Assembly: GCA_964016885.1 (NCBI GenBank) | Contig: OZ024740.1 | Span: 396,366,001 to 396,430,000 of the forward strand | DNA length: 64,000 nt | Direction: 5' to 3' | Origin: Eledone cirrhosa | Taxonomy: Eukaryota | Shown: in pieces, positions 298 through 62,749 of the stretch | How positions within the stretch are numbered: position 1 is the stretch's first letter | Layout: every line of letters starts with the position of its first letter | Notes under the pieces: generated by a model | Databases searched by the model: none | What the model saw: the letters and a program-made list of their open reading frames with translations, nothing else | Told to the model about the DNA's origin: nothing | Position numbers and translations under genes: made by a program

Positions 298-2186
298 CAT
301 CATCATCATCATCATCATCAACGTTTAACGTCCGTGTTCCACGCTTGCATGGGTTTGGACGGGGGTAGTCCCACTTGAGGCAAGAGTGATTGTCTTGCTC
401 GCATAGGACTGTCTGGCAGGTTTTCTACAGTTGGATGCCCTTCCTAACACCAACCACATTTACAGTGTGGGTCTGGGAGGTTTTTACCGTGTTGCCTACA
501 CGGCCACATTACAGCGTGGACTGTGTGTTTTTTTGTCGTGACACCTACACGATCTCATTTGTTTCGGCCCGGATGGCGCGGCACCAACATAACTTTACAT
601 AGGACGGGGTGGTGGTGGTGGGACGGGGTGTATTTTGTTAGAGATGCCTACTGGCAAGGCGGGTCTTCTCTGTTACTGAGTACCGCCAAAGGTCTCGGTC
701 CAGTGACATTGTCTTGGAGAGGTGTAAGTGTGTGAGGTCGGAGTTTATCAGCTCGTCCCAGGTTTTTCTAGGTCTGCCTATTCCGTGGCTACCGTCTATC
801 TTTATTGCCCTGCACTTTGTTATACAGCTATCGACTTTCATGCGCATCACGTGTCCATACCAACGTAGCCTTCTCTCGAGTAAACAACATCTGATCCCTC
901 TTATCTCTAATTTTTTCCTTAGTTCGTTTATGCTTTGCCGTTCACGTATATTACTGTTACACATCCAGCGGAGCATGCAAGCTTCGTTCCTCTCTAGTCT
1001 GCGTATATCCTCTGCACACAATGCCCAGGTCTCACTGCCATGCAACATTGCTGTTCGTATGCAGGCATCGTACAACCTGCCTTTCATTTTTAGGGAGAAC
1101 CCTTTAGCAGCTAATAGTGGTATAAGCTCTCTGAACTTTTTCCAACCAGTTCTGACTCTAGCTACAGTACTTTCAGAGCACCCTCCCCCACTGCTGATTT
1201 TATCGCCCAGGTAACGGAAGCTGTCCACTATTTCTATAGAACCCTCTGCGCAATTGAAAGAGCTAGTATTGTGTGGGCACTTGCTGCTACTTATTGCACC
1301 AGAACACCGGCCACATGTAAAATCTATGTTCTTAGTTAGCTTACCTGTGATCCCACTACATCTTTTATGCACCCATACTTTGCATTTAGGACACAAAATG
1401 GAGTTTCTACCTACGCCTTTCCTACACACCGAGCACGACCATTTCCCAGAAGGGACCGCCGCCTTGTTTTCTTTCCTACAAACTAGAACTTTGGTCTTAG
1501 CCAGGTTAATTTTAAGTCCTTTTGACTCTAGGCCGTGCTTCCATGTTTGGAATTTCTTCTCTAGCTCGGCCATTGATTCCGCTATGAGTGTCAGGTCGTC
1601 TGCGTATAGGAGTTCCCATGGGCAGCCTGTCTTGAACTCCTCTGTTATAGCCTGAAGGGCAATAATAAATAGTAGGGGGCTGAGAACAGAGCCCTGATGG
1701 ACGCCAACTTTTACGCTAAACTCTTCACTATATTCGTTGTTAATTCTAACCTTGCTGACTGTTTCTTTATACATGGCTTGTATAGCCCTCACAAGCCATT
1801 CGTCAACGCCTAGTTTTCTAAGAGCCCACCAGATAATGGAGCGGGGGACTCTGTCGAAGGCTTTCTCCAAGTCGACAAAAGCTAAGTAGAGGGGTTTACC
1901 TTTAGCTAGGTACTTCTCCTGTAGTTGTCGTACTATGAAAAGAGCGTCTGTGGTACTTTTGCCTGACACAAACCCGAACTGCATTTCATCTAGGTCAATT
2001 CTCTCTCTGATTAGTTGCGCTATTACTTTTTCTGTGACCTTCATGACCTGGTCGATTAATTTAATGCCTCTATAGTTACTCCTATCTAGGGCGTCTCCTT
2101 TACCCTTATAACAGTTAACGATGATGCTGCTATGCCAGTCCTTCGGAACAGCCCCATTCTGTACGACTTGGTTAACTATGCGGGTG
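298..2186 (-). mobile_element. 5'-truncated copy of the same RTE LINE (RT + 3' UTR + tail)
   Basis: Near identical to 35243-37149; ORF 638..2227 open but its N-terminus is microsatellite-derived; flanked on both sides by (TA/TACA)n. Confidence 0.95.
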
Positions 2187-5077: not shown

Positions 5078-5526
5078 CTCTCCAAGACAACGTCACTGGA
5101 CCGAGATCTTTGGCGCTACACAGTAATACAGAAGACCCGCCTTGCCTCAGCGAAACCTAGTCAGTAGGCACCTCTAACCAAAATACACCCCCCCCCCCCG
5201 TCCCACTACCCCATCCACACCACCCCTTTTAATGTAAAGTTATGTTGGTACCACAACATCCAGTCCGAAATGAGGTCGTGTAGGTGTCACAACAAAAAAC
5301 ACAGTCTACGCTGTAATGTGGCCGTGTAGGTAACACGGTAAAAACCTCCCAGTTCCACACTGTAAATGTGGTTGGTGTTAGGAAGGGCATCCAGCTGTAG
5401 AAAACCCGCCAGACAGTCCTATACGAGCAAGACAATCACTCTTGTCTCAAGTGGGAAAATTCTCGTCCAAACCCATACAAGCGTTGAAGTTGGACGTTAA
5501 ACGATGATGATGATGGTGTTGATGAT
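5078..5526 (+). mobile_element. 3' end (ORF tail + 3' UTR + (GAT)n) of a closely related RTE subfamily, opposite orientation
   Basis: Reverse-complement similarity to 300-720; flanked by TA-rich microsatellites. Confidence 0.88.
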
Positions 5527-6212: not shown

Positions 6213-6543
6213 GGTGGAAAGCACATAGCTTAGTGGTTAGAGCATTGGCCTTGCAATCAAGAGGTTGTGAGTTCAATTCTCAGACCGGGTGATGTGTTGT
6301 TTGCTTGAGCAAGACACTATTTCACATTGCTCCAGTTTACTGTAGAAATGAGATGATAGGTACTGGGGTCCCTATCATTCCACTGTAAAGTGGTCATGGA
6401 GGTGCCACGACAAAAAAGCACCCAGCACTCACTGTAAATGAGGTTGGTGTTAGGAAGGGCATCCAGCTGTAGAAATCAAGCCAGAATCAGTTCCCATCCC
6501 ACCCTTGCAAGCAGGGAAAAGCGGACGTAAAATGATGATGATG

Positions 6544-6544
<1 letters not shown>
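6212..6544 (+). mobile_element. tRNA-derived CORE-type SINE with RTE-like tail
   Basis: Pol III A box (TAGCTTAGTGG) and B box (GTTCAATTC), CORE-like CTTGAGCAAGACACT, RTE-shared structured body and (GAT)n tail. Confidence 0.8.
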
Positions 6545-6578
<34 letters not shown>

Positions 6579-8051: not shown

Positions 8052-8430
8052 ATCATTTTATGTCTGCTTTTCCCTGCTTGCAAGGGTGGGACGGGGACTG
8101 ATTCTGGCTTGATTTCTACAGCTGGATGCCCTTCCTTACACCAACCTCATTTACAGTGAGTGCTGGGTGCTTTTTTTCCGTGGCGCCTACACGTCCACTT
8201 TACAGTGTGGGCTGGGTGCTTTTTTTTGCCGTGGCACCTCCACGACCTCTTTGCAGAGGAATGATAGGGACCTCAGTCCTATGATGTCATTTTTACAGCT
8301 GAGTAAACTGGAGCAATGTGAAATAAAGTGTCTTGCTCAAGGAAACAACACATCACCCGGTCTGAGAATTGAAATCACAACCTTTCGATTGCAAGCCCAA
8401 TGCTCTAACCACTAAGCCACGTGCCTCCAT
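8052..8430 (-). mobile_element. Second copy of the tRNA-CORE-RTE SINE (one extra internal unit)
   Basis: Reverse complement of 6212-6544 with two pseudoknot units. Confidence 0.8.
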
Positions 8431-16200: not shown

Positions 16201-19200
16201 TGATTTCAGAATAAGGATCAGAAGGACTCTTCAGTTGTGTCAAAGACAATATACCTAGTGTTGGTGTTAAGAAGGTCATCCAGCCATAGAAAACTTGCCA
16301 AACGAAGGGTTGGAAGGACTCTTCAGTTGTTTCAAACATGTGACAACCTCCCTACTGCTAGTGCCATGATAAAATGCACTTTGTAGAACATATGTAAGCG
16401 AGATGCAGGCCCATGACCCATTTGAGAAGTCGGTAGCTCTGCTTGAGTACTGACCGGACCAATCCTTGCTAACAAGAAAAATGGACGTTTAATAATGTTG
16501 ATGTCAGCAGTCTTGTTTCAGATTATAGTCTCACAGCAAAAGGAGTAGGTTTGCAATAAAACTTAAAACAACAAAGTTGAAGAAACTCCAACAAAAACAT
16601 TGAAATTTGAAAACATTAAAATCAAAGTACTGGTTGTATTGCTTTACAAACTATCACAAAATGGATAGAAACTATTCTTTTTGGTAAGGAAGCAGTTAAA
16701 AGATTGAATATAAGAGTTTAAAAAAAAGAATTGATTGCAGTCATTTAGTACAAACGAGAATTCAAATGTCTTTACCTTCTGTTTTTACAGGTGTTGGTTT
16801 GTCTTCTTCAATCACAGGGCAAGTGTTCCCACGCCGTTCTTCACTTGATATTCTTCCATTACTGTTTACCTTTGTTTCATATGAAGAACTGTAGTCTTTT
16901 GTATCATAATTTGATTTTCTAGATTGGTTTGTGTCAGTGTTAGATACATTTCTTTTATCACTGAATTCTGTTGTGTTGAGATCATTGTTGCACCGTTTAG
17001 CTGGGCGAGTCTTTTTCCTAACTACAGTGTTCTGCCCACTGTTGCTACGTTCATTGAGGTCTTCAGAAGAATTTGCTGAACAATTTTTCACTTCATATAT
17101 GGCAGCTTTTAAATTGTTTGATAAGTCTTTTGTATCTTTTTCATGAGAATTCACTTTTAAAATATTTGGCTTTCTCTTGTAACCAAATATTGAAAATAAA
17201 GGAGGAAGTTTTTTAAATAAATAATTTGCTTTAAAGGTCCACTGTTTGTCCCTCTTGTTATTTGTGTGGTCTGTGTGATTTGTTGAACTCTCAGAAAGCA
17301 AGCGTGAAGCACGACCCTCTGTAACTACAGAAGAGTTTTGTGGTAGCATTTTAGAAACAGATGAAAGCCCAGAGATATTTTTCAGATCAAATGCTTTACC
17401 CTTCTCAAATGGCTGTGTACCATTTAACACTTTGAGTTTTCGTCTGTAAGAGTCTGCTACACAAATGCGCTTTGCTTCAAGATAGGCTGTAATAAATACA
17501 CACAGAGTGAGCACAACAATTATACAGATAAAGGCATAGTAGAGACCCATTTCCCAACTTGGGCGGGGTAGGGCAGCAGCGCATCTGGCTAACATATAGG
17601 GAGGTACAGTAGCTTGCAAAGTGAAGTTCACTGGTGGCCCTAAACTTGTAGAGATTGTAAGAACACGACGAATACGAGACATGGTGAAGTCAGGAGTGAA
17701 ACTGAAAAGGAAAATATAAATAATTTAGTCAGGAAATTAAGAATACATTATATAAACAATTTACCATTAATCTAATTATATACTTACGCAATATCTATTT
17801 TCTGACTACCATTAGGGAGCAGCTCAAAGCCAGCACAGTCTAACACTTTGAAACCATATCCTTCACAAGGTGAAGAATTTATGCTGAATCCATGCACATA
17901 AAATGGTAATTCGCCAGTGTTTCGCATCGTAAACATTCTTTTCACAGTAAAATGAGGCAATGAGTTTTTACCCTGCTTTTTTTCTGAAACAAAGGAAAAG
18001 TTTTTTTTTAACAACCTCTTCATTTCATGTATCCTCATAAATACTACAGAATATCATGACATTCACTATTCACTTCCCTGACATTTGTATATTATTCTAT
18101 GTACTATACATGCACCTTTGATGAGTTGTAGTGCATCTGAGCACTGTACACAATAATTTTATTATTATAATTAATAGGTGGGATAGTTCTGTAGATTGGA
18201 TTTGGATAAATTGTGTGTGCATTTCCTACTGTAATCTGCTCTACCATCAAATAGAGAATACTATCCACTTTTTAGCTTGATAATATATTAAATCTTGACC
18301 AGCCTTATAGCAACTATAATTAACATCTATTTTTCTATGCTGGCATTGGTTGGATGGATAGATTATTTGTCAGGGCATTTTCATGGCTGGATACTCTGAT
18401 GGAGCAATTTGTGTATATAGTGTAATAAACAGCAAACAATTTTGGTAGAGTCATTAGTGTTGGATATTTTTCCTGGTGTGTGTGTTCCAAGTTCAAATCT
18501 CACCGAGGTCCACTTTGCCTTTCATCTTTTCAGGGCTGATAAAGAAACCACCAGCTTAGTGCTGGTGCAGCCCTTTCTCCTTCCAGGTGTTACATCTTGA
18601 ATGTTTGGCTGAATTAAGGCGGAGAGGGTCAAGGTGTTGCTTTCTGTTCCTGACTGCATGGGCACCTAAAACCCTTAGTGAAAGCATGGCACATACTACC
18701 AAGTCATGCTCGATTGCAAGTGACAACTGAAGATGAACAAACTACATGCCATCAATTTAACTTCAGATACAACTTTTCTGAATAGAGAGATTTCAATAGT
18801 GATATTGTGTAGTAAGTATGCAAGGGATCAGTAGGATGTTGATAAAGGAATGATTAGTGGCAAGACACAGAAAACGAGAGTATGTTAGAGGAAATAGGAC
18901 TGGTGTCAGTGATGATTTAACTTTTAAATAAAGGACTTTATTAGAAGTATTAGTAGCACAGTTATTTGGGTCAACCACATGCATAATGTAGGAAGAAAGT
19001 GGAGAAATAATACTTACTATCACAGTTCTTTAAATGTTTCTCTGTCATCTCAAAGAGTAGTGGTGTTCGAGAGCCAGCCTTTCTGTTACTGAATCTCATT
19101 TCTCCCTGACCACCCTGACCCTGTACCACAAGACTGTCTATTATTGTTAGGTTGTTTCTGAAACAAACAAGAAACAATTTTATTCATTCTCTGCAGTATA

Positions 19201-22200: not shown

Positions 22201-25200
22201 TAACCATCTCGCCAACAACAACCCTGAGCACCTTTTTGATCTCCATGTGTCTAACACACGTGGACATGCCTACAAAATCAGAAAACAGCACACCTCCCAT
22301 CACTTTCGTAAACATTTTTTCACGCTCAGAGTTGCTGAAGCATGGAACAAACTGCATGTGTCAGTTGTTAGCTGCCGAGACACTGCGTCCTTTAAAACAC
22401 TCATGCTTCCCGAAATACGCCCAAACTACACCTGATGTACCCCTTCCATACACATGCACACGTGTATATCATGACTCATGCACTGTTCATTTTCCTGACG
22501 TTTGTACATTACCCTATGTACTATACATACACTTTTTGATGAGTTGTAGTGCACCTGAGCACTGTACACAATATTTCATTATTATTATTATTATTATTAA
22601 TTAATTATTATTAGGGCAGTGGATTGGCAGTATCGGTAGAGGGTTGGACGCCATGCTTTCCAGCATAGTTACGTCCCTTTACGATCTGAGTTCAAATCCC
22701 GCCGAGGTTGACTTTGCCTTTCATCCTTACGGGGTCGATAAAATAAAGTACCAGTAATGCACTGGGTAATTGCTGGCCTTGTGCCTAAAGTAGAAACAAT
22801 TATTAATTAATTATTGTGTATTAACAAAAGAATAAATAGCATCTGAACTATTAAGGATTATTTAGCAATCTTTTTCATTAACACAATTCCTCTCCCATGG
22901 TGGTATTACTCTCTGCCACTCCTATCAATACTTCCCCAGTGATGATGCCATGATAAAAATGCACCCAACCCATTTTGTAAAGCAGTAGTGCTGGTGCCAC
23001 AATAAAGGGCACCTAGTGAACACCTTCTGCCACAACAGGGGAACCTGGTTCACTCTGTAAAGCGATAGTGCCAGAGTGATGAAGTGTTCCTGGTGCAAGC
23101 TGTGGTTGGTGTAAGGTTGGGCATCCAGCTGTAAAAATCATGCTCCCAGTACATGCTGTAAATTGGTTGGTGTTAAGGAAGGCATCCAGCCATAGAAACG
23201 AAGCCAAAAATGGAACACATGAACAAGACATGGTCACATGTCTAACTTATGCAAGCATAGAAAATAGCCGAACAGTGATAATGATTGTCAAACAGTATTA
23301 CTATCAAATAACATTAATAGCATGTCATACTGATGACAGAGTGTACACAGTTGCTTGACCTGCTAGAAATAACCAGATTTCCTGCAAATCATTCGTATTC
23401 TTAAAAAGAAAATATTGGATTGCAGTCTGAGGCACACTGTATGTATAATAAAAAAATAAAAAAAAGGCAAGATGAGTACAGCTGTAATGGATATCAGGGC
23501 TGACCTGGAGCTCAACATTAATCAATGACTTCCTCACAGCCATGCTATTAATTTATTAATTGCTATCATTATCAACTTGAAAATTGACTCCTATATGGAT
23601 TAACTCTTCACAATGCCATACCAGTTGTGATATTGTAGAAGGCGAGAAACTGATAATAACCTCCAGTCTTATTACTTGGCATTAGTGAATTTTGGAACAT
23701 CTGTGCGATGTGGATAAAAAAAAAAAAAAAAAAAAAAAATATCGTAGCTTCATCCTCAGCTTATGTTCATGAAATGAATTCAGCCGAGTCAGTGAGATTG
23801 CTCTATTCTCAGGTTCCTTTTATTATAACTACTAGACATTGCTTTTGAGGTAACTCTTTAGCCACCATGCTTTCATCTTTTCAAAATAACAATATTCAAG
23901 TATCATAAAATTTTAACTCCTCTTGCTTTCTTGCACAGAAAATTACTTATGAAGACAAGCCTGATATTCTGGTGCAGATGATGATTGACTATATCCAGCC
24001 AGCCCAATATTCCTTTTTGCCTTGTCAGGCACTTCTATTTACTACTGTTATTTACATCACTTCCTCCATGAATCTGATCAAATTATATTGTTGCTTTAGC
24101 TGAGTTTTTTCAGCAGGGCATTACTATGATTTTTGTCAAATTCGTAAATATACACTTTTTTTTGTTTTAGGTTCACCTGATGAATATATTTTTCACTGAT
24201 TTTCATGCAGACACCCAGTGTCAGAAACTGCACCCTTGGCATTAGAGTCAGGGTTCACAGGATTAGCTTTTGCATAGGTTTGATCATCCTTCAAAACTTC
24301 CATGCTTCCTGAAATTCGCCAACACTACACCTGATATTCTGCCTCCATACACACGCACGCATGTATCTGTGTATATCATGACTCATACACTGTTCACTTT
24401 CCTGATATTTGTACATTATTCTATGTACTATACATGCACCTTTGACGAGTTGTAGTGCACCTGAGTACTGTACACAATTTTCATTATTATTGTTACGTTA
24501 ACAGCATCTTAAATGCGAAATAACTTACCTATTACTCATAAGGTCAACAATAGTTTGCGGGTTTGGATAGACAGGTAAAGTAAAGATTTGTATCAGAACT
24601 GGCACATCCCCAGGGTTTTCTACGATGAAATCTGATAACTATTAAAAGAAAAAAAAAAAAAGTTATGCGGTTATCTGTCACTCAAACACAACATACACAC
24701 AAAAAAAAAAACTAACTTTTATAACAAAAAATACAAAATATACTTGTATACAGCAATTTTCTACTAAAGCAGTAATATATTTATTTTTCATGGCATTTGT
24801 AAGTCCATTTTATCTTAAGATTATGTCTATTTTTCAATATTCAGATACGAAAGGATTATATCTTTTATAGAAGCTATGGTGAATATTTCTTACAGTTCAA
24901 TCAGTTAATATAAAATATTTTAAGACTAGCATTTTAAAATCAATCCATTTCATCTTTTACAGAATCTGAGATTCTAGATAGACAAAAGTCTTTGTACAAA
25001 GGGTTTCTAGTTTTGAATTTTTCATAAAGGACCAAACTGAAACAGAAATTTAATATAAGAAGTTTTAAACTATTAGATAGGTAAACCCTTTAACATTCAT
25101 ATTACTCTCTATATACTATTGTATTTTTACGGTAAAGGATTTATCTCACAATATCGAATCTGAGATTGATATTTTGAGAACAATACCTTAACATCGGTAT

Positions 25201-34700: not shown

Positions 34701-37700
34701 GTAGATCAATCACGGAGAGTTAATAAAGCTGTATTTAAAATACCTCTAAATGTAATCTGGGCTACTGCTACAGGACGTAATACATCTGGCTGTAGTTTCA
34801 TAGGTCGGAATTCTACAGAGATAGCATCATTTGGAGGTGATAAAGAAACGCCCTGCAAAGCAAGAAAACAAAATAGTTTTAGAAATTATCTTCAAACATT
34901 TTCACTTACAACTAAATCGTTTTGATATAAAGCAATAGTTTATAGATTTTTAAAAAAATTAAGAGAAACACTGGCAACAAACAAGCACACACACATTTAA
35001 GTGCAAAAAGGAAGAGAGCATTCAATATAGAGCTCATATTTGTGGGTGAACTGTTATTAACTTACTAAGAGTTTCGTAGGAATGTGGGCATGTGTATAAT
35101 CATTTAAATGTTCACTGTAATTGAATAACCAGATATGCGTTTCATGTGCTTGTGAAAACTGAGTAATAAATATGTAAGCCAAGAACTGTTCACCTCAGCA
35201 CGTTTGTGCATATATATATATTTCAGCATGCTTGTGCATATATCATCATCATCATCATCATCAACGTTTAACGTCCGTGTTCCACGCTTGCATGGGTTTG
35301 GACGGGGGTAGTCCCACTTGAGGCAAGAGTGATTGTCTTGCTCGCATAGGACTGTCTGGCAGGTTTTCTACAGTTGGATGCCCTTCCTAACACCAACCAC
35401 ATTTACAGTGTGGGTCTGGGAGGTTTTTACCGTGTTGCCTACACGGCCACATTACAGCGTGGACTGTGTGTTTTTTTGTCGTGACACCTACACGATCTCA
35501 TTTGTTTCGGCCCGGATGGCGCGGCACCAACATAACTTTACATAGGACGGGGTGGTGTGGATGGGGTGGGGGTGGTGGTGGTGGGACGGGGTGTATTTTG
35601 TTAGAGATGCCTACTGGCAAGGCGGGTCTTCTCTGTTACTGAGTACCGCCAAAGGTCTCGGTCCAGTGACATTGTCTTGGAGAGGTGTAAGTGTGTGAGG
35701 TCGGAGTTTATCAGCTCGTCCCAGGTTTTTCTAGGTCTGCCTATTCCGTGGCTACCGTCTATCTTTATTGCCCTGCACTTTGTTATACAGCTATCGACTT
35801 TCATGCGCATCACGTGTCCATACCAACGTAGCCTTCTCTCGAGTAAACAACATCTGATCCCTCTTATCTCTAATTTTTTCCTTAGTTCGTTTATGCTTTG
35901 CCGTTCACGTATATTACTGTTACACATCCAGCGGAGCATGCAAGCTTCGTTCCTCTCTAGTCTGCGTATATCCTCTGCACACAATGCCCAGGTCTCACTG
36001 CCATGCAACATTGCTGTTCGTATGCAGGCATCGTACAACCTGCCTTTCATTTTTAGGGAGAACCCTTTAGCAGCTAATAGTGGTATAAGCTCTCTGAACT
36101 TTTTCCAACCAGTTCTGACTCTAGCTACAGTACTTTCAGAGCACCCTCCCCCACTGCTGATTTTATCGCCCAGGTAACGGAAGCTGTCCACTATTTCTAT
36201 AGAACCCTCTGCGCAATTGAAAGAGCTAGTATTTTGTGGGCACTTGCTGCTACTTATTGCACCAGAACACCGGCCACATGTAAAATCTATGTTCTTAGTT
36301 AGCTTACCTGTGATCCCACTACATCTTTTATGCACCCATACTTTGCATTTAGGACACAAAATGGAGTTTCTACCTACGCCTTTCCTACACACCGAGCACG
36401 ACCATTTCCCAGAAGGGACCGCCGCCTTGTTTTCTTTCCTACAAACTAGAACTTTGGTCTTAGCCAGGTTAATTTTAAGTCCTTTTGACTCTAGGCCGTG
36501 CTTCCATGTTTGGAATTTCTTCTCTAGCTCGGCCATTGATTCCGCTATGAGTGTCAGGTCGTCTGCGTATAGGAGTTCCCATGGGCAGCCTGTCTTGAAC
36601 TCCTCTGTTATAGCCTGAAGGGCAATAATAAATAGTAGGGGGCTGAGAACAGAGCCCTGATGGACGCCAACTTTTACGCTAAACTCTTCACTATATTCGT
36701 TGTTAATTCTAACCTTGCTGACTGTTTCTTTATACATGGCTTGTATAGCCCTCACAAGCCATTCGTCAACGCCTAGTTTTCTAAGAGCCCACCAGATAAT
36801 GGAGCGGGGGACTCTGTCGAAGGCTTTCTCCAAGTCGACAAAAGCTAAGTAGAGGGGTTTACCTTTAGCTAGGTACTTCTCCTGTAGTTGTCGTACTATG
36901 AAAAGAGCGTCTGTGGTACTTTTGCCTGACACAAACCCGAACTGCATTTCATCTAGGTCAATTCTCTCTCTGATTAGTTGCGCTATTACTTTTTCTGTGA
37001 CCTTCATGACCTGGTCGATTAATTTAATGCCTCTATAGTTACTCCTATCTAGGGCGTCTCCTTTACCCTTATAACAGTTAACGATGATGCTGCTATGCCA
37101 GTCCTTCGGAACAACCCCATTCTGTACGACTTGGTTAACTATGCGGGTGACCATGGTGTGTCCCACCGTGCCAGATGCCTTCAGCATCTCAGCAACTATT
37201 TCCGAAGGCCCAGCCGCCTTACCTGTCTTCATATCCTTGATTGCCTTACTTATTATACTCCCCTCGACTAACACTGCTGGTCCCTCTATTGGGTCGACAT
37301 GGGGGAGACTGTCTTTCTCCCATTTATTCTCCTCATTTAGTAGCCTTTCATAGTGACACTTCCAAGCTACCTTCTTATCAGTGTCGGTGATGGCAAGTAT
37401 GCCATCATCGTTAAGTACACACTTCTCCCCGACAATATCACGGTTTTCCTTGACGCATTGCCTAGCAATCCTGAACACCTCACGTTTTTGGTCATCGCGT
37501 TGTAGGACATGCTTGAACTTTCTTTCCTCAGCTTCCCTTCTTGCTAAGTACACTTCTCTCCTAGCTTCCCTCCTGGCCACTTGGTAGTCTACTCTACTTC
37601 CCCCATCCCGCCATACTTTCCAAGCCTGCTTTTTGGCCTTAATTGACCCCTCCACCTTACTGTTCCACCACCATGTTACTCTCCTCCTGCCTACAGGCCT

Positions 37701-39440
37701 GCTCCAGCCACAGACTTCGTCTGTGGCCAACAGCAGGTTTGCTTTCAGAAATTCCCACTGTCCCTCTATATTGTCCGACTCTAAATGTTCTTCCTTACTG
37801 TCGAAAGCATCAAGTAATATGTTTTGAAATTTATTTTTGGCTGTGGGGTCCTTTAGCTTCCATATTTTTCTCCTGAGGATAGTCCTCTTCTGCTGTCGAG
37901 TACGTCTCGTCCTGACTATGAGGTCGCTAATTATCAGTCTATGTTGGGAGGTGCATTCTTCATGGGGGAGGGATTTAGTGTTTACAACAGACACTCTGTC
38001 ACGTCTTCTGATAAGGATATAATCTACCTGGCTTGTGTGTTCCCCGGATCTATAGGTGATCAGGTGATTGTCACGTTTTTTGAAGTTAGTGTTACAGATA
38101 GTTAGGTTATTTGCATCACAGAATTCCAGGATTCTGGAGCCTTCCTCATTTCTAGTACCAAACCCATAGCCTCCATGGATTTCGTCGTAGCCGTCACAAT
38201 GTTGCCCAACGTGACCATTTAGGTCGCCTGCAATAATTATATAGTCACTGTCAGATATTTGGGAGGTAGTGAGCATCAGTGTCTCATAGAATCTGTCTTT
38301 TATAGTGCCGGGCAGTCCGGATTGGGGTGCGTACGCAGATATTACTGTCACCGTAGTTCTATTGAGGACAAGTCGTATTTTAATTATTCTGTCGTTCACT
38401 CTATTTACGTCTATTATCTTATCCGCCCACTTTTCTGCTACCATGATTCCTACTCCACCCAGCCCATCGTCGTTTCCCACCCAGAAAAGCTTATAACATC
38501 GTTTTTTACCCTCAATGAATCTAGCAGACCCACCCCTCCACCTGGTCTCTTGAATACAACAAACATCGACCTCCTTACGTTCAAGCATTTCTACAACCTC
38601 GTTAGCGCGCCCCTTTAGGGTGCCTACGTTTATGGTACCAACTCTGAAGTTTTGGATCGCGTTTGGAGGGTGGGGGTGGTGTGGGGCGGGGGGAGATGGG
38701 GTTATGTTAGCCATCCGCGGGCGAAACAAAGAAGAGTGCTCGCATTCTCGTCCACGAGGTGAATTTGACTTTAGCATTGGCATTTTCGCTCTGAGCGTCC
38801 AGATTTTTCTCTCCCTTCCACTCTCCAGGATTCCGCAGTCCGTCCATCCATCCATCCATCATATATCGAAGGCAACCGTGCAAGCGATAGTATAGGCCTC
38901 TGGCTTATGATTGGTCCGCGTAATAATAATAATGGTGATGCGTGTGGGGGGGGGGGGGGTCTCTGGCTTATAGTAATAATGGTGATGCGTGTGTGGGGGG
39001 TCTCTGGCTTATGATTGGTCCACGTATTTAGAATGGTGGTGTGTGGGGGCGGGTGGGAGGGATCTGGGGTAGCTAGCTGGAAGGTTATGAATGTTTAACA
39101 GCGAGTAACAAAAAGCAAAACTGCAAGATTTGTTCTGTTCAATACGACAAAAACACCGTATTTAAACCTTAATAAATAACAAAAAATACAGATTTCGGAT
39201 TTTGCGGGATTGGATGTTTGGTCTATGTACGAAATTGTGGTGTGTGGAGTAGATAGGAAAAACGTGAACGTTACGATTACATGGTTACACCGTAGTAGGG
39301 GTAGTTGAAGCAGCAATTGTTTGGCGAAAGTGAATAAACATGAACGGGAATTTATCTTATATATATATGTGTGTGTGTGTAGCTAAGAGAGAGAGATGTG
39401 TGTGTGTGTAGCTAAGAGAGAGAGAGAGAGAGTGGGAAGG

Positions 39441-42400: not shown

Positions 42401-45400
42401 AAATACAGATTGAAATAAATTTTAAAATCAATGAAGTGTAGGAAGTGATTACATAATTGAGTGATATAGCTGTAGAAATGAGATGACAGGACTGGGTTCC
42501 CTATCATTCCACTGCAAAAAAGCACCCAGCCCACACTGTAAAGTGGACGTGTAGGCGCCACGGAAAAAAAGCACCCAGCACTCACTCTAAATGAGGTTGG
42601 TGTTAGGTAGGGCATCCAGCTGTAGAAATCAAGCCAGAATTAGTTCCCATCCCACCCTTGCAAGCAGGGAAAAGCGGACGTAAAATGATGATGAAGATTT
42701 AAATTGTATTATGCATCATCAGACTTTTCAGTAATTAGCTAAGGAGTTACCAGTATTTTCTAATTATACTAAACATGTTCTGGAAACTCATCAGCCACCA
42801 GATCACCTAGCTATCAATGAACACACAGACATCATACTCACCAGGAAATTTGAATACTAATATCTTGAAAAAAAAAAAAAACATCACACAATATAGACTA
42901 GAGAACTTATGGTGATAGCCTAGTTCCTATAACAGAATTTGCTAAAAATTTAATTCCAAACTCTGAAGCAAAACTTAGAATTGAGAGGCCTCAAGGTGAA
43001 GATAGTAAATACTCATGTTTTAGCTAGCAGAAAAGAAAACAAGACTATTGTCATTGGGAAAATGGCCATGTTTGATAAGTAAAAAGGAGCGGATAGTTAT
43101 TTAATATGGTGTACCCTATGTAAACTACGGATACACAAATCTACTGGGATCACAGACAGGCAAACAAAAGGTAGACTTTCTACGTGGCAGATGCAAGGCT
43201 TAGTAAGAGTACACATGAAACAATTCAAATGCTTTGAAGGTTTCTAAAATTAGTTGCTAATCTTTATCACTGGGAAGGGGGCTGCTCCAATAACATAGCA
43301 ATCAGTAAGGATGAAGTGGAAAAGTGCAAGGAGCTATTATCTCTGATGACAAAATTCTCAGTGAAGAGCAGATTGTATGATGCTTGTGTGCAATGTAAAA
43401 GGCTGAATAGTAGTACAACATGGACAATTGAACCAAATTAAGTACAAGAGAAATCAGAAGCAATGAGCAAGATACAGGCATATGATATGTATGGAGAATG
43501 ACAGTTGGGTGAAAATGTGGCAAGTAATTCAAATGGAAAGAACTAGTGAACGCTGATCTTAAAAAGCTGAAATTTAAAGGTGATGACATAGGACTGACAA
43601 ATAGTGCAACGCTCTATTGTAAAAGACCCTTCCAACTTATGCAGACATGGAAGAGTGGGTATAAAAACGATGCTGATAATTACATGAAAGACCCACATAT
43701 ACAGAGAGAGAGGGGAGGGGGCAGAGAACTAGCTGTACATCATGAAACAGTCAGACCTCAATATACACACAGTAACTTGGAATTAGAACTGGCCTGGCCT
43801 GTAACAACTTGTCCAACCCATACCAGCATGGAGAAAACAGTGACAGATAAAATAAGAGGTTCCTTACCCACAATGTTGTTATAGCCTCTCTGTCTCCTGT
43901 TGGGAGTTCTAAGTGCAGATCCCCTGCACTTGAAAACATTCCCACAACCTAGTTAAAAAAAGAGAACAAGTACAGTTTAAACTGAAAATACTTTTTTTTT
44001 TTTTAAATTCAGTGTTTAGCCATAGTAATTCTAAAAAAATAAATCCATGTATAATATTTTATAGGCTGAAAACTTTTGCCTTCATGTAGCAATTTTTCTA
44101 ACCCGACCCACCTCTTATAGGGTAGAAAGAACTCTTCAGACAAGACTGACCAACAACCTCTCCAGTGCTGGTCCCATGATAAAAGGCACCCAGTACACTA
44201 AAGTGGTTGGTGTTAGGAAGGGCCTCCAGCTGTAAAATCCATGCCAAAAAGGTTCAGAAGACCCTTCAGTCATGACAACCTCTTTAGTGTTGGTGCAACA
44301 AAGAATGCACCAAGCATGGTGCATTGGTGCCATGGAAAAATGCACCCAATAGAGTTTGGGAGTATATGAGATGCAGCTTCTGGCCTGCCTGAAAGATCAG
44401 TGGTTTTGATTAAGTACTGATTTGATCTACAACAACCTGTTCAACCTTTGCTAGCTGGGGAAAAAGGATGTTAAAAGATGATGATGACATAAGTTAATGG
44501 TGGATAAACTGGAGTGGAGTTCATGTAAGCTGAGCTCAACACAGCAATTATAGAGTTGAACTGTACCACATTATCCATTTACAATAAGAGCTAGTAATCA
44601 ACTGATATTTTTCTCGTATATACAGCATGGAACCAATGATAGGATATAGGATATGCATCAACTCTTCAGTTGGTTTGACACCATTTCAAATTGGTCTTAA
44701 GTCAACTAAACAGCTATTGGAGATCATCATTCATAAAAACCACGAAGCAGCTGTTAACGAGTTTAATTTCAGCTAATGTACACATTTTTTTTTTCATTTC
44801 CATGGAAAAATTTTGCAAGTAATTTGCTGCTCATATACTGAAGAAATAGAAATATAAAAGCTTGAAGCAATAATATAACATCTTACATGAAGTTTATATA
44901 AGAAAGTAAAGCGATTCCAATTGAGAATAGAAACAAAAATTAGAAACTTATTGAGAATTCACCACCAGAATATACTTGTCACAATTACTTTGTGTATAGA
45001 GACAATGTTATGCTTACAATAGGATAAGAACACAAATCTAAAATCATCACCATAGCAATTGGATCATTGACTTATCACTGATCTATGTAATTAAAGCAGC
45101 AGAAAAGGATTCTTATTAAAGAAGATTGTTTTAAGAACATAAAAAAGTTACCTGAAGAGTTGAACTGTGTGGATTATGCATTTCAATTAAAGAAGAAAAG
45201 CTACTGTTCAAGGGGACTTTGGCACCCAAGTAAGGTCGAAGTCTATAAGGATTTGGAATTCCAACTCCAAACACCTGCAAGAAAAACACATTTAATGTAA
45301 AATAAACAAGTTTGAAAAATTTGAAGTGTTACATAAGGGAAGAGAAGATCTGCAGCCACTGGAAATAAACAAGTAGAGAATTTTCAGCAGTGTTGAGAAA

Positions 45401-52007: not shown

Positions 52008-52779
52008 CTGGAAATAAAAAAAAATATTAACTAACTAATATTCTTTACTTATTGCATGTTTTATTCTGAATATTTTAAATGCACCATGATTTGCCTTAAA
52101 TACACAAAAATTTAGTTTCCAAGTATTCTCCACCATAACAATAGTATGGACCACCCCACCCACTCTCATGAGGACAGGCTGAAGCATACATCCAGTGAAG
52201 CCTCCAGCCCACACAGTAAAGTGGTTGTGATGGCGACATGGCAAAAAGTGACCAGTCCACACAGTAAAGTGGTAATTAGGCGTCACAACAAAAAGCCCCC
52301 AGTACTCTCTGTAAATGATGTTGGCACTAGGAAGGGCATCCAGCAGTAGAAACCAAGCCAAAATCAGTTCTGTACAAGCAAGACATGGTCACCTGAGCTG
52401 GCATTGCTCACAACAGAATAACTCATCTAACCCATGCCAGCATGGAAAAATGGAGATGATGCTATCTAGCTTGAGAATGATTGTTCTGTGTGTATGTGAG
52501 GATAACACTAGTGTTGGTTCAAAATCAATTTGTTATAGTTTTGTCCTTATGACATATATATATATTTTAACATTAATATATTGGATTTCTTTCTAGGATT
52601 ATGGTATTTTTCTTGTAATTATTATTTTACAGTTGCTTTCCATGCTGATAAGAGTTTCTAATACAAATTAGATTAAATTCTATGGTATATGTAAGAAGAG
52701 TCAACACAAGAAGAATGATTTTTCAGAGAAAATCATCAATCTAAATACTATACAATGGAATAACCCATGCAGCAAATAT

Positions 52780-55744: not shown

Positions 55745-58665
55745 ATGATCATAAAGCAATCAAAGAAATGAAGGTAGGGAAGGCAGCTGGGTCATCAGGT
55801 ATAGTCACTAAGATGCTTCAAATATCTGGCATGGTAGGGTATATGTTAATCACACATAATCGGCTAGTACAAAATGGTGTCATACCCAATAACTGGTATA
55901 GCAGCATTATTATCAATTGTTATAAAGTCAAAGGTAGAAAGAGTTACAGCCTAGCTGATTAGAGACAGAATTAACACAGCTGAGGTGTAGTTTGTACTAC
56001 GAAGAGGTACTTCTACTGCACTCTTCTTATGAGAAATACATAGCCAGGAGAAAGCCTTTGACAGAGTTCCACGTGCAGTAATCTGGTGGGCTCTTAGAAA
56101 ACTAGGAGTAGATGAATGGCTTGTGAAAGCGGTACAAGCCATGTATAGGGGAGCAGTCAGCAAAGTTAGGATTAGCAATGAGTATAGCGAGGAATTTAGC
56201 GTACAGGTTGGGGTCCACCAGGGCTCTGTTCTTAGCCCTCTCCTGTTCATCATAGTCCTGCAGGCAATAACGGAGGAGTTTAAGACCGGATGCCCATGGG
56301 AACTCCTGTATGCTGATGACCTCGCACTCATAGCTGAATCTATGGTAGAACTAGAGAATAAATTCCAAACCTGGAAGCAGGGACTAGAGAGAAAGGGCCT
56401 CAAAGTCAACATGACAAAGACTAAGGTCCTTGTAAGTAGACGAGAAAACAGAACCCAGATCCCCTCAGGGAAATGGCCTTGCTCAGTATGTAGGAAAGGT
56501 GTAGGTAGGAACTCCATTCTCTGCCCCAAATGCAAACAATGGGTACACAAGAGATGTAGCGGGATCTCGGGAAGCTTAATTAAGAATGTAGGATTCACAT
56601 GCAGCAGCTGTGCTGAAACAGCAAGCAAACAGCCACAGGAAACAAGTAACACCAATCTCTGGGAGGGCCCTGTAGAAACAGTAGACAGCTTCTGCTACCT
56701 AGGTGACCGAATTAGCAACGGAGGTGGGTGCTCAGAAAGTACAATAACTAGGGTAAGAACGGGATGGAAGAAGTTTAGGGAACTACTACCACTGCTAGCT
56801 GCAAAAGGCTTCTCCCTCAGAATGAAAGGCAGACTGTATAATGCGTGTATCCGAACAGCGATGTTGCATGGTAGTGAGACCTGGGCGCTGAAGGTGAAAG
56901 ACTTACGTAGATTAGAGAGAAACGAAGCCTGCATGCTCCGATGGATGTGTAACAGTAATATACGTGAACGACAAAGCATAAAGGAATTGAGAGAGAGACT
57001 GAGCATAAGAGGAATCAAATGCTGCGTGCAGGAGAGGCGGTTACGCTGGTATGGACATGTGATGCGTATGAAGGATGACAGCTGCATAAAAAGGTGCAGA
57101 GCACTAGAAGTTGATGGAAACCGTGGAGTGGGGAGACCCAAGATGACTTGGGATGAGGTGATAAAAGCCGACCTTACCCAACTACACCTCTCAAAGACAA
57201 TGACACACGACCGTGACTTCTGGCGTCACGCAGTAATACAGGGTACCCGACCTTCCATGGGTACATGCTGAAGCATATAAACAATATGCCCCCACTCCCC
57301 CCACCGCAAGGTGGTCGTGGAGGTGCCACGGCAAAAAAGCACCCAGCCCACACTGTAAAGTGGACGTGTAGGCGCCACGAAAAAGCACCTAGCACTCACT
57401 GTAAATGAGGTTGGTGTTAGGAAGGGCATCCAGCTGTAGAAATCAAGCCAGATCAGTTCCTGTATGAGCAAGGCATGGTCAGCCGACCAGACACTGCCCA
57501 CAACAGGACAACCCGTCTAACCCATGCTAGCGTGGAAGAACGGACGTAAAACGGTGATGATGATGATGATAGCCAGGCATAAGCCTCTTTGCCTAGAATT
57601 GACTTGGAAACAGCTTTTGACAGGCTATCACATTCTAATCTGCTGGGTGTTTAGGAAACTGGGGGTGGATTGTCAATTCAAGTTGAGGATTTACAATGAG
57701 TAGTGAAGACGTTAGTGTTTAGGTGTTAGGCCTTAGCTCCCTTATATTAATTATAGTCAGCAAGACCTTTACAAGAGTTTAAAACTGGCTGCTCATGGGA
57801 ACTCTTGTATGTTGATGACCTAGTTCTCATAACTGAATCTGTAGTAATGCTGAAGAAACTCCTGACATGGAAAGTCTTCAATGTAAAATTAGCAAAAGTA
57901 AAATTTTAAGTAGCAAAGAATACAGGTCCTTGTTACCACCAGAGAAATGGCCCAGCTCAATATGTAGAAAAAGAGTAGGGAGGAGTTCCATACTGTGTAA
58001 ATTATGGACATACGAGATGTAGTAGGATCATAAGCAGACTAACAAAGAATGCAGGCTTCGTGTGTGATAAATGCTCTTGAGCAATAAGTACTAAGAGCAC
58101 ATGAGAAATAGACTCAAATGCCCAACCAGCTCTATAGAAGTAGGTGACCTAATTTGTGGAGGAGGTGGGTGTCTTGAAATGTAGCAGCTTGAATAAAAAC
58201 TGGAAGTTCAGGGAGCCATTAACTCTGCTGGCAACAAAGCAACTCCCAGAGTAAAGACCAGATTGTACAATGCTGCATGTTAGTGAGACATGGGTTATGT
58301 ATTCAGAGCATTTGCAGTGACTAGAATGAAGTATGATCTAGTGGCTGTGTATTATTAGTATGCATAAATGCTGAAACACAAATGAGTTGAGAAAAACTAG
58401 GTATAGGAAAAAAAAAAAAGATATAGTGTGCAAGAGAAGATTGTGCTGGTATGGTCATGTGAGGTTTATGGAATAAGGCAGCTATATAAAGAAATGCAGG
58501 GCACTCAAAGTGGCTGGAACCCAAGGAAAAGATGAAGTGGTGAAGAATGAACTCAAAAAGCTAAACCTCACAACAAAGATGAGGAATTGTGATGATGACT
58601 GGCAACATGCAATGTAGAAGACCTGCTTTCCTATGCAAGAATGGAGAAACGAACACTAAAATTGT
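55745..58665 (+). pseudogene. Old degraded RTE LINE, split by the younger RTE insertion
   Basis: MKVGKAAGSSGIV..NCYK..EKYIAR upstream continues as HKPL..AFDR..KTGCSWELLYVDD downstream of 57570; many frameshifts. Confidence 0.85.
56049..57570 (+). mobile_element. 5'-truncated RTE LINE, diverged sister subfamily (ORF open, 382 aa called at 56123..57271, PHD finger retained)
   Basis: RT motifs LLYADD, FCYLG, RLRWYGHVMR; structured 3' UTR; (GAT)n tail; duplication ATAGCCAGG at 56040-56048 and 57569-57577. Confidence 0.92.
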
Positions 58666-59952
58666 AGTAGTCAGAAACTGGGAGGTACATCTGCATATGA
58701 GTCTCCTGCCCAATATGTCCCTAAGTTATTTGCTACCCACATCCTTGTTTATATGATCTCGCATTTCTATCATTCACTGCACTATACTGCCAATGTAATC
58801 TAATGATGTATTTGGGTTGATCTAACAATTTGCACCCTATGATGCACTCCTATCCATTCTATTTGCTCCAAAAGTGAATATCTTAGTTCTGCCCATATTC
58901 AACCCCTTCTTTGGATATTTATGAGCATCAGATCCCCTTCCACTCATACATTGCACTACTGTACTTTCTATACTGCCAGCCATCCTCCACTCTTTTCAAC
59001 GACACTTCATTGCCATACCCCTCTTCTCACTACACTGTCTTTTTGCCTTCCCATCACTTCTCCCACCATACTCATTCATTCAGCCTGACCCTTCTATCCA
59101 CTCTCCCAGTCATGTTGCTTTGATTGAACAGCAACAATAGAGTAGTGAGTACCTTTTTTTAAAGTGGTAGCTCCTGAACAGAGACCATGTAAAGTCAAGA
59201 GGACCCTTTAGTCTTGTTGAGGTGCCACTATAAAAAGCACCCTGTACATTCTAGAATGATTGGCATTAGGAAGGGCATCCACCAAAAATGGAACATACGG
59301 GGAAGACAAGGTTCTCCAACCCACCCAGTCTCAAACCGTCCAGCCCATTCAGTATGACAAACGAATGTAAAATGATGACAAAAAGCATTTTTATGTTTGA
59401 TTTTCCATGTTAGCATGAGCTGAAGAAGGCTTTTTTGAGGCAGTGTTTTTATAACTGGTTGCCATTCCTGATGCCAACCCATTATTTTCGGAGTATGGTA
59501 TATACCACCCCTTTGTTGAACTCGTTAGCAGCAGAACTTTCTTGCCATAAACTGTCGATATGAAGATGTAGAGATAGGTACACATGCACTGTGTGTGTGT
59601 GTATATATATATACACACACACACAATAATAATTGAAGTATGAAGTAGAAGGCAATTATACTTCACATTTTATTTATTATGTAACAGCTGTTATACATAT
59701 TTCCATGGTATCTGTTACATAATTTTAAACATTCAGATAAGATTCCGTCAAAGAGCTCTCTCCTGTATAAATTTTAATGGTATAATTTGGTGATATATCA
59801 ACCAGAAAGCTTTCAGTGTTGATTGTCCAATACCCATTTGATATATGGTGTTCATGCATACAAGTGAGCTGCAATTGTATCTGAAAGTTTAAAGTGACTT
59901 AACAGATACCGTAGAAATAAATAAAATTATTATACCAATACTTCAATACTAA

Positions 59953-61630: not shown

Positions 61631-62749
61631 GATATTCTGTGATACGAGGAACTCGCTTTCCCACATAAGTGGAATGAATGCAGCAGAAGCAGGATGGCTA
61701 ATCCACAAACCAACCCTAACCCACCGCTACCATAAAGCCGAAAAAGCAGAGAAATGTTACAACACTGAAGTTCCATCTCCCACCTGCCAGTATATTGAAA
61801 TCCCTGCCAGCATGCACCCCGATACCTTTCTCCACCCTAAACCTGAAAAAGCAGAGAGATGGAATAACTCAGGTCCTCACCTGCCAATATACTTGTGACA
61901 CCTTCACCTAATCTATGCTAGGAGGAACCCTTGACCGATTCATTTTCCCTACTGAACCCTTGCGTTGACATTCATTTTCCCTACTAAACCCTTGCATCCC
62001 CCACACTCTTCTAACCTAGGAAAGCCTGGAACACCTCTAAATTGGACACCACCCACCAATCCTTTTAGACCTCTATGGGAAGTCAGACACTATTGCTGGA
62101 CCCCAACTTCAACCCCACCTCCCCAGCACAACCATATACAATAAACATCCTAGAACTGTAATGAAATAGTGTTGGTGCTACTACAAAAGCATCTAGTTCA
62201 CACTGTAAGGCAGCAGTGCTGGTGCTACTACAAAAAGCACTCAGTTCATTCTGTAAGGTGGTGGTGTTGGAATGATGATAAAATGCTCTTAGTATACTCA
62301 TCATCATTTTACGTCCATTCTCCCACACTAAAGTGGTTAGTGTTAGGAAGGGCATCCAGCCATAGAAACCAAGCCAACACAAAGCACCTGAGCTTAATCA
62401 CCTGACAAGTCTGACCTCAGCACGGGGCAGCCATCTAACCCATGCAAGCATGGAAAAATAGACATTAAACAGGGATGATAAACTCACACTGAAATATATT
62501 ATAATGGTACCTCTACAAATCCATCAAGAGTTCAATGCCCATATAAGGATGGATGATGTTTGAATATTTTAGTGAGGCTCAATTTATGATGAGTAACATC
62601 TCAAGTTACAGTTTACTGGAAATAAAGTGTCAATATTTAATTCATCAAGTTGCTTTATAAAAGGTAATTTCATTCAGCCATCAGTGGCTGACCACAATAA
62701 AAAAATAGAGCAGTTATACAACTTGACAGAATTTTAAAATGACTGATGA

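What the first reader, a model, noticed from the sequence alone, without database searches (positions are those of the whole stretch)
35397..35495. Tandem, covarying pseudoknot + hairpin RNA module in the RTE 3' UTR
Seen (element sense): a ~45-nt unit repeated 1-2 times. It consists of stem1 with a GG-containing loop, an A-rich linker, a strand complementary to that loop, then a CCAC-(ac)UGUAAA-GUGG hairpin. The pairings covary: stem1 UCGUG/CACGA and CCGUGU/ACACGG here versus CGUGG/CCACG at 57316-57330; loop pairing GUGU/ACAC, AGG/CCU, GGUGC/GCACC, UAGG.GC/GC.CCUA; hairpin CCAC/GUGG becomes CCUC/GAGG in the SINE near 8245-8260 and CUCA/UGAG elsewhere. Established: this is H-type pseudoknot topology with an A-minor linker. 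It resembles the P1/pseudoknot half of pistol ribozymes (P2 appears absent) and tandem pseudoknots in viral 3' UTRs. Inference: an uncharacterised structured RNA element for RT recognition, nuclease blocking, translation enhancement of a non-polyA RNA, or self-cleavage.
Basis: partly seen in the sequence, partly recalled or inferred. Interest (0 to 1): 0.8.

Follow-up and report, generated by a model that had tools for sequence, protein, structure and literature searches.

The report
Retrotransposon leader RNA moved to tail
This repeated 48-base RNA module sits at the back end of one jumping-gene (RTE LINE) lineage but just before the start codon in its sister lineage, so it is likely a leader element that was moved; it is predicted to fold as a small pseudoknot plus hairpin in some copies only, and it likely helps the RNA engage the cell's translation machinery.

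Summary
The 48-nt unit is real: stem 1, A-rich linker and a hairpin with a fixed loop. It is repeated twice in this RTE 3' UTR and followed by an older conserved motif (U3). The pseudoknot is only partly supported. A phylogeny-aware test finds no significant pair. It is not a pistol ribozyme.

New: a sister RTE family in the same genome (60% protein identity) carries the unit plus U3 in its 5' leader, 80-140 nt before the endonuclease start, and nothing in its 3' end. The families with the 3' module lack it in their leaders. In other animals U3 follows a twister ribozyme in RTE leaders. The module is therefore most likely a relocated leader element.

By-catch: the SINE CORE domain has the same layout and, read by eye, keeps both pseudoknot stems in 15 of 15 published consensi with two-sided changes. 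I found no report of this. Homology between unit and CORE is not shown. Function is untested.

The parts
35601..38858 (-). RTE-type single ORF, family A (AP endonuclease, RT, PHD finger; 1085 aa stop to stop, ATG at 38714). No unit or U3 in the 600 nt upstream of the endonuclease start.
   Evidence: the clade label RTE rests on domain layout and tail (recalled), not on a classifier call
35500..35600 (-). C-rich spacer and small hairpins between the stop codon and the module
35445..35498 (-). Unit A1: 5-bp stem 1, 4-bp stem 2 (predicted H-type pseudoknot, loops 3/0/7 nt), 5-bp hairpin
   Evidence: 62.7 bits; this copy was in the model's seed
35397..35446 (-). Unit A2: strengthened 6-7-bp stem 1, stem 2 lost in register, 5-bp hairpin with the conserved loop
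35358..35398 (-). U3, an older conserved motif: 6-bp stem around a purine-rich loop. A possible second pseudoknot pairs 35382-35379 with 35361-35358; the partner triplet lies at a fixed offset in 246 of 281 own-genome copies but is invariant.
35243..35305 (-). 3' tail: terminal hairpin (35295-35282) and (GAT)n repeat, shared with family E and the SINE
453..555 (-). Identical two-unit module in a 5'-truncated family A copy
5273..5372 (+). Older family A module
57312..57411 (+). Family B module: unit B1 with 5-bp stem 2 intact, unit B2 with a C.A mismatch in stem 2
8095..8419 (-). tRNA-headed CORE SINE carrying two B-type units (8144-8248) and U3; CORE domain at 8284-8346
   Evidence: (tRNA match below cut-off)
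6215..6545 (+). CORE SINE with one unit (6391-6444), U3 and a family E-type tail
52222..52321 (+). Older-lineage two-unit module; further old units at 22938-23168, 42513-42597, 44164-44208, 59214-59263 and 62164-62263

Best explanation
The unit-plus-U3 module lies in the 3' UTR of RTE families A and B and in the 5' leader of sister family E, so it is likely a leader element that was moved to the tail; it is predicted to fold as a small pseudoknot and hairpins that likely dock the retrotransposon RNA on host translation machinery. SHOWN: the complementary placement; the single clade of 3'-module families; U3 directly behind a twister-like ribozyme and 290-400 nt before the endonuclease start in other animals' RTEs; two-sided changes in stem 1 and the hairpin; loss of stem 2 in the proximal units; uptake of the module by a CORE SINE. 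INFERRED: (1) an ancestor of A and B gained the module when the RT switched template from a short leader-plus-tail RNA onto the full mRNA near the stop codon, and then lost the leader copy; (2) RT slippage between like units keeps duplicating it, and spare units decay; (3) the fold, and the invariant single-stranded hairpin loop, bind a host factor (ribosome or initiation factor). That would support translation of an RNA that lacks a poly(A) tail and, behind a ribozyme, a cap. It would work from either end of the mRNA, and it would let SINEs that carry it sit where the RT is made, as proposed for the Alu pseudoknot domain (model recalled).
For: Family E leader pattern: 975 genome matches; 28 of 30 fetched loci have the endonuclease start just downstream of U3, mostly 78-95 nt; about 45 A-rich nt separate U3's end from the AUG. 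Three of three such elements checked end in a direct tail with no U3, and L245 holds both ends. None of 20 A/B-type leader rows (72% identity or more) has U3 or a unit within 600 nt. RT tree: 3'-module families form one clade (97/96), with direct-tail family E outside it (90/93). Metagenome scan: 93 of 121 U3 matches directly follow a twister-like sequence (Rfam twister-P1 in 3 of 10 loci tested, E 4e-8 to 8e-4, below the gathering score); 4 have the endonuclease start 294-399 nt downstream. Lineage alignment: 8 cells with two-sided change, 0 of 500 shuffles as high, and the true register beats all slid ones. The junction base pairs either into stem 1 or into stem 2 in most lineages, as expected if the two helices stack. 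Ribozyme-headed LINE leaders are proposed to act like IRESes (PMC6765202 and PMC8501958, passages).
Against: No functional data exist; no RNA run was available. The phylogeny-aware test is negative. Stem 2 shows conservation but almost no two-sided change (1 pair, ambiguous within the A-run; 54 of 500 shuffles reach the score). The control ignores relatedness, I chose the rows, and two rows have the hairpin shifted by one column. The old lineage and family E fold better as one long simple hairpin than as a pseudoknot. One unselected E-type leader (L415) lacks the module, and the 30 E loci were picked by the U3 pattern. The tree has a midpoint root and two long outgroup branches. No twister core was found in this genome, so family E RNA may be capped. 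The 48-nt unit was not found in 37 non-own loci (best E 0.038); only U3 is shared with other animals.
Confidence: 0.38

Rival explanations
1. The module is a binding site for the element's own ORF protein that helps RNP assembly or completion of integration, like the protein-bound pseudoknot at the 5' end of R2 RNA, and it works from either end.
For: R2 protein binds a 5' pseudoknot (PMC6765202 passage). Bipartite RTE derivatives and SINEs keep 5'-UTR pieces (PMC5786205). Engineered RTE templates use both UTRs (PMC13708176 passage). The SINE took up the module.
Against: The module is nearly unchanged between families whose proteins are only 60% identical, and U3 is shared with RTEs at 44-60% identity. 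Family E primes from the bare tail. The SINE combines a B-type module with an E-type tail.
Confidence: 0.22
2. The module is a decay block: the knotted fold stalls 5'-3' exonuclease behind a cleaved or uncapped 5' end, or shields the poly(A)-less 3' end from the exosome.
For: U3 follows a twister in 93 of 121 metagenome matches. Folded ribozymes give cap-like protection in R2 templates (PMC13708176 passage). About 16 of 75 family A copies have their 5' end within the module.
Against: Those 5' ends are spread over 130-246 nt from the tail with no single site. The control family was too small (8 copies), and many loci were picked for holding the module. The stems are short, and no ring-like xrRNA features were seen (features recalled).
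Confidence: 0.2
3. The unit is a passenger or a DNA-level element (internal promoter or enhancer) that multiplies by slippage; its pairings are incidental or arise by DNA hairpin repair.
For: Negative phylogeny-aware test; ordinary z-scores; stem 2 is broken in young, abundant A2 and B2 units; units expand into minisatellite arrays; the B hairpin may have been copied from the SINE's CORE hairpin.
Against: One location per family; persistence through successive lineages; two independent hairpin swaps and three pair types at one stem-1 position.
Confidence: 0.15
4. The unit is a pistol-like or other self-cleaving ribozyme.
For: Hairpin, A-rich linker, loop pseudoknot and following hairpin resemble the P1-pseudoknot-P3 part of pistol (PMC6154101 passages); RTE leaders often hold ribozymes.
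Against: No P2 and no P2/P3 cleavage junction; 4-5-bp rather than 6-bp pseudoknot; no Rfam match (one search found nothing in its controls either). Cleavage in a 3' UTR would cut the ORF from the tail, and no sharp breakpoint is seen.
Confidence: 0.04

Closest known systems
RTE 5'-UTR pieces captured by SINEs and bipartite elements (Kojima 2018, PMC5786205; parts 1-4 of 5 read, supplement searched)
   Same: A conserved non-terminal RTE leader segment joined to an RTE 3' tail and taken up by a tRNA-CORE SINE.
   Different: The U3 motif is absent from that supplement. Here the leader piece sits in the 3' UTR of autonomous RTEs and is missing from their leaders. The paper proposes no RNA fold for the leader domain in the parts read.
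CORE domain of CORE-SINEs (MIR, octopus OR families; PMC5804259 passages and supplement, PMC4824008 passages, PMC4758252 passages and supplement hits)
   Same: Layout: short stem, loop pairing with a strand 9-13 nt downstream, a 3-nt spacer, then a hairpin with a similar loop. The hairpin half scores above shuffles (z 0.7-6.1 for 10 of 10 unit types).
   Different: The pseudoknot half shows no sequence similarity, and the unit model does not hit CORE. CORE has a 5-bp plus 6-bp pair of stems and a pyrimidine-rich linker. Homology is not shown.
Ribozyme-headed LINE leaders (HDV-like in R2, L1Tc, RTE; twister in Schistosoma Perere-3; PMC6765202 and PMC8501958, passages)
   Same: Structured RNA before the single ORF; U3 directly follows a twister-like sequence in other animals.
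   Different: The unit is not a known ribozyme; no twister core was found in this genome; the module also occurs at the 3' end.
Pistol ribozyme (Rfam RF02679; PMC6154101 passages)
   Same: Hairpin, A-rich linker, loop pseudoknot, then a second hairpin.
   Different: No P2, no catalytic junction, shorter pseudoknot, no model match.

Membership tests
Pistol ribozyme | P1 hairpin whose loop forms a 6-bp pseudoknot | tested here: inconclusive
   4-5 bp possible in A1, B1 and E; lost in A2
Pistol ribozyme | P2 stem and P2/P3 G-U cleavage junction with A32/G40/G42 | tested here: not met
   The linker is pure A with no P2 strand (features)
Pistol ribozyme | Rfam RF02679 match | tested here: not met
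   (to E 5 and 10); genome search was empty but so were its controls
Pistol ribozyme | Self-cleavage | not testable with these tools
   Indirect only: no sharp 5' breakpoint
H-type pseudoknot | Crossing stems with loop 1 of at least 1 nt, loop 2 of 0-1 nt and loop 3 of 6-9 nt (geometry recalled) | tested here: met
   A1 3/0/7, B1 2/0/6, old lineage 2/0/8; not met for A2 and B2
H-type pseudoknot | Covariation in both stems beyond phylogeny | tested here: inconclusive
   Not significant (low power, few lineages); stem 1 and the hairpin change on both sides, stem 2 barely does
SINE CORE domain | Sequence homology to the conserved 5' 45 nt | tested here: not met
SINE CORE domain | Similarity to the 3' hairpin part | tested here: inconclusive
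   Modest excess over shuffles
RTE 5'-leader element | Lies upstream of the endonuclease start in RTE elements | tested here: met
   Family E, 28 of 30 selected loci; U3 only, in 4 metagenome loci
Ceph-type RTE 5'-UTR domain (Kojima 2018) | Sequence match to that domain | tested here: not met
   0 hits for the U3 words in the supplement; the printed domain is a different sequence
Stringent LINE 3' recognition tail | Present at the 3' end of all mobilised relatives | tested here: not met
   Family E has the tail but not the module
IRES / cap-independent translation enhancer | Drives translation without cap or poly(A) | not testable with these tools
   Position only
xrRNA | Blocks XRN1 at a defined site | not testable with these tools
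   Indirect test gave no defined site

The most novel reading that the evidence does not exclude
The RTE module and the CORE domain of CORE-SINEs (including mammalian MIR) are one class of small pseudoknot-plus-hairpin that docks retroelement RNA on a conserved host factor such as the ribosome. It works from either end of a LINE mRNA and is hijacked by SINEs. This would be an Alu-domain equivalent and would explain why CORE has been kept from cnidarians to vertebrates while switching partner LINEs.
Probability: 0.2. Interest if true: 0.85.

Novelty: new variant of a known kind. Interest (0 to 1): 0.6.

Why it matters
A cis element that swapped ends of an autonomous LINE gives a natural experiment on what RTE leaders do, and RTE systems are being engineered as gene writers (PMC13708176). 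The CORE by-catch turns what PMC5804259 calls 'a major enigma' (why SINE domains are conserved) into a direct test: break and rescue a 6-bp stem. That paper also notes that no such domains had been found in LINEs; a CORE-like layout in a LINE UTR would bear on this, though homology is not shown here.

Tried and rejected
Rfam at relaxed E on the window, the 3' UTR and E leaders: only repeat-driven noise. DNA search of the own genome returned nothing because common words are skipped. Viral contigs: 0 U3 matches and 5 chance CORE-pattern matches. No RNA holder was listed; this is no evidence on expression. Laying contigs of coded runs showed family A variants in four runs and the E leader in two of four, but no new stem variants I could use. 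The nhmmer homology test failed technically and was replaced by profile alignment. ARAGORN found no tRNA gene. The truncation hot-spot test was inconclusive: 20 apparent stops were internal duplications and were set aside. A twister remnant upstream of the units was considered by eye and not supported. The CORE pattern scan of genome contigs gave 37 loci, of which I treated 12 as animal contaminant SINEs and aligned 9; L302 lacked stem 2, and L305 was left out. Literature: the U3 13-mer occurs in 0 papers; 'CORE-SINE' plus 'pseudoknot' gave 2 papers, both irrelevant on reading the passages; some searches gave listings with no description of this module. Gilbert and Labuda 1999 and Ruminski 2011 were not held, and one supplement file of PMC4758252 could not be searched, so an earlier description there cannot be excluded. 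A systematic pick of one intact representative per lineage was not completed, so the lineage alignment uses hand-chosen rows, one of them partial.

Full report
CONTEXT. The finding lies in the 3' UTR of a single-ORF non-LTR retrotransposon on the minus strand (ORF 35601-38858; AP endonuclease, RT, PHD finger) that ends in a hairpin and a (GAT)n repeat. I call this family A; the label RTE and an octopod-type host are my inference from recalled features. The genome has 3.0 Gb.

THE OBSERVATION. The unit is 47-48 nt and very abundant: 95,529 exact matches to a hairpin+U3 pattern with 0 for the control, and 517 units in the fetched DNA with 0 on reversed DNA. Successive lineages carry 1-5 units, and some loci have minisatellite arrays of it. 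Stem 1 and the hairpin hold in all young lineages. Because inserted copies decay neutrally, only changes between lineages count. These are real for the outer stem-1 pair (U-A, U.G, C-G), for the inner stem-1 pair (G-C, U-A, C-G, but unpaired in 5 of 10 rows) and for the hairpin. For the hairpin, A-U occurs in 74 copies and U-A in 91, with 0 mismatched of 165. Genome-wide, 637 copies have the U arm with a non-A partner, and 14 of the first 100 of 1,127 A-arm copies are mismatched, which is the level of decay. The SINE hairpin variant is compensated in only 2 of 63 copies. The extended pairing at 57.39 kb is 1 of 24. The 3-bp pairing in A2 is out of register.

THE PSEUDOKNOT. With nearest-neighbour stems and a conservative penalty (no coaxial or triple bonus), the H-type fold is within about 1 kcal/mol of the nested fold for A1 (-7.2 vs -8.5) and B1 (-16.0 vs -16.3). 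It is 4 worse for A2, 7 worse for B2 and 4.5 worse for the old lineage, which prefers one long hairpin; the E unit also folds as a long hairpin in the nested model. My phylogeny-aware G-test on 278 distinct units (392 of 517 passed the coverage filter) found nothing significant; power is low. On 11 hand-chosen lineage rows, stem 1 + stem 2 + hairpin gave 8 two-sided cells, with 0 of 500 shuffles as high (this control ignores relatedness). Stem 1 + stem 2 alone did not stand out (54 of 500; an earlier 14-row set gave 18 of 500). So stem 2 is supported mainly by conservation and by the junction base swapping between the two stems. This element holds at most one intact pseudoknot unit.

NOT PISTOL. 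P2 and the cleavage junction described in PMC6154101 (passages) are absent. Rfam has no match (one search is uninformative). The 5' ends of about 16 of 75 family A copies fall within the module but are spread over 130-246 nt from the tail.

WHERE IT COMES FROM. Of 80 RT C-terminal rows, 71 are followed by the module, 5 run straight into the tail and 4 are unassigned. The direct-tail family E (60% identical to A) instead carries hairpin, an 8-bp stem, one unit, hairpin and U3 in its 5' leader, then about 45 A-rich nt and the AUG. Its leader pattern has 975 genome matches; 28 of 30 loci have the endonuclease start just downstream; 3 of 3 checked end without U3. An older E copy has three leader units. 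None of 20 A/B-type leader rows has the module. Among unselected E-type rows, L245 and L447 have it, L151 and L204 are cut inside U3, and L415 lacks it. The A and B families form one clade (97/96) with E outside (90/93; midpoint root; 28 of 80 rows kept after removing near-duplicates). In metagenome contigs of other animals (hosts not determined), 93 of 121 U3 matches directly follow a twister-like sequence and 4 precede an endonuclease start by 294-399 nt. The simplest reading is a leader element moved once to the 3' UTR, in line with the bipartite leader-plus-tail elements of PMC5786205. The window's CORE SINE then took the B module and the E tail.

MECHANISM. I commit, at 0.38, to docking on host translation machinery. 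It fits the place before the AUG, the place behind a cap-removing ribozyme, function from either end, near-identity across divergent RT proteins and uptake by a non-coding SINE. Binding by the element's own protein (0.22), a decay block (0.2), a passenger or DNA element (0.15) and self-cleavage (0.04) remain. The placement and the pair counts are shown; relocation is inferred (about 0.8); function is untested.

CORE BY-CATCH. The CORE domain of the window's SINE (8284-8346) has the same layout: a 5-bp stem, a loop strand pairing 6 bp with a strand 11 nt downstream, then a hairpin with a similar loop. Read by eye, with the register chosen by me, 5 or 6 of the 6 stem-2 pairs form in all 11 CORE consensi of the PMC5804259 supplement (some have ambiguity codes), in the oyster CORE and in MIR1_AMi, MIR_Xt and WALLSI4: 15 of 15. 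Two-sided changes occur at every stem-2 position: A-U for G-C at position 1 (coral), position 2 (horseshoe crab, this genome) and position 3 (frog MIR); A-U for C-G at position 4 (sea hare, oyster); G-C or U-A for A-U at positions 5-6 (two crabs). Stem 1 is rewritten but paired in crustaceans and MIR. On 13 tool-held copies, 94% of cells pair against 32-54% when slid, with two two-sided stem-2 pairs and 10 of 500 shuffles as high (stem 1 was fixed by the search pattern). The 45-nt part that PMC4824008 finds in all CORE-SINEs matches the span of this pseudoknot. My searches found no report of it, but the founding paper was not held. Sequence homology with the RTE unit is absent for the pseudoknot half and modest for the hairpin half.

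PAPERS SEEN. PMC5786205: parts 1-4 of 5 and supplement hits. PMC5804259: passages and the whole supplement text. PMC4758252: passages and supplement hits. PMC4824008, PMC8501958, PMC6765202, PMC13708176, PMC6154101, PMC13282606, PMC9115989, PMC6445303, PMC5723415: passages. PMC12265939: listing and start of abstract (Alu 5' pseudoknot binds SRP9/14). The Alu ribosome-docking model and the pseudoknot loop rules are recalled.

VERDICT. Observation partly confirmed; interpretation partly supported; a new variant of a known kind (structured LINE UTR element, relocated). Interest 0.6, owed to the 5'-to-3' move and the testable CORE pseudoknot.

Noticed in passing
window 8284-8346 (-), 6295-6355 (+); L282-L311, L323-L352: The SINE CORE domain can fold as an H-type pseudoknot plus hairpin, with two-sided changes across cnidarians, arthropods, molluscs, echinoderms and vertebrates in published consensi; no report found.
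   Followed up: partly
L306:338-422: In a contaminant SINE the CORE pseudoknot is followed by a Deu/Nin-type stretch (label recalled) that also looks like a small stem-loop-linker pseudoknot; its second half gives the only non-own hit of the unit model (E 0.038).
   Followed up: partly
L043, L051, L053, L093 and about 90 other metagenome loci: Twister-like ribozymes at the 5' end of an abundant animal RTE family; the 3' strand of twister P1 overlaps the 5' arm of U3, so cleavage could switch the fold.
   Followed up: partly
L363-L392, about 120 nt upstream of U3: The family E leader is preceded by a long poly-T tract and GT-rich sequence; some copies begin at that tract. Its role (start site, terminator or RT stall) is unknown.
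   Followed up: no
L023, L024, L153, L155 and others: A family A subfamily has a 112-nt duplication of hairpin + unit A2 + U3 (18 copies), so U3 itself is also duplicated.
   Followed up: partly
G000:C1:112493769-112494418; C2:26994731-26994956: Old units expanded into 47-48-nt minisatellite arrays.
   Followed up: no
window 35601-38858: The RTE ORF carries a PHD finger after the RT domain, in families A and B.
   Followed up: no
window 35260-35700: Near-identical sequence is held by runs of 15 coded organisms: close relatives or horizontal transfer; not resolved.
   Followed up: no
L282-L284, L290, L306, L310, L311 and other genome-contig loci: Several prokaryote genome records contain animal CORE-SINE contigs, a sign of host contamination.
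   Followed up: no
window 16762-17724 (-): A 320-aa open frame with no credible Pfam match.
   Followed up: no
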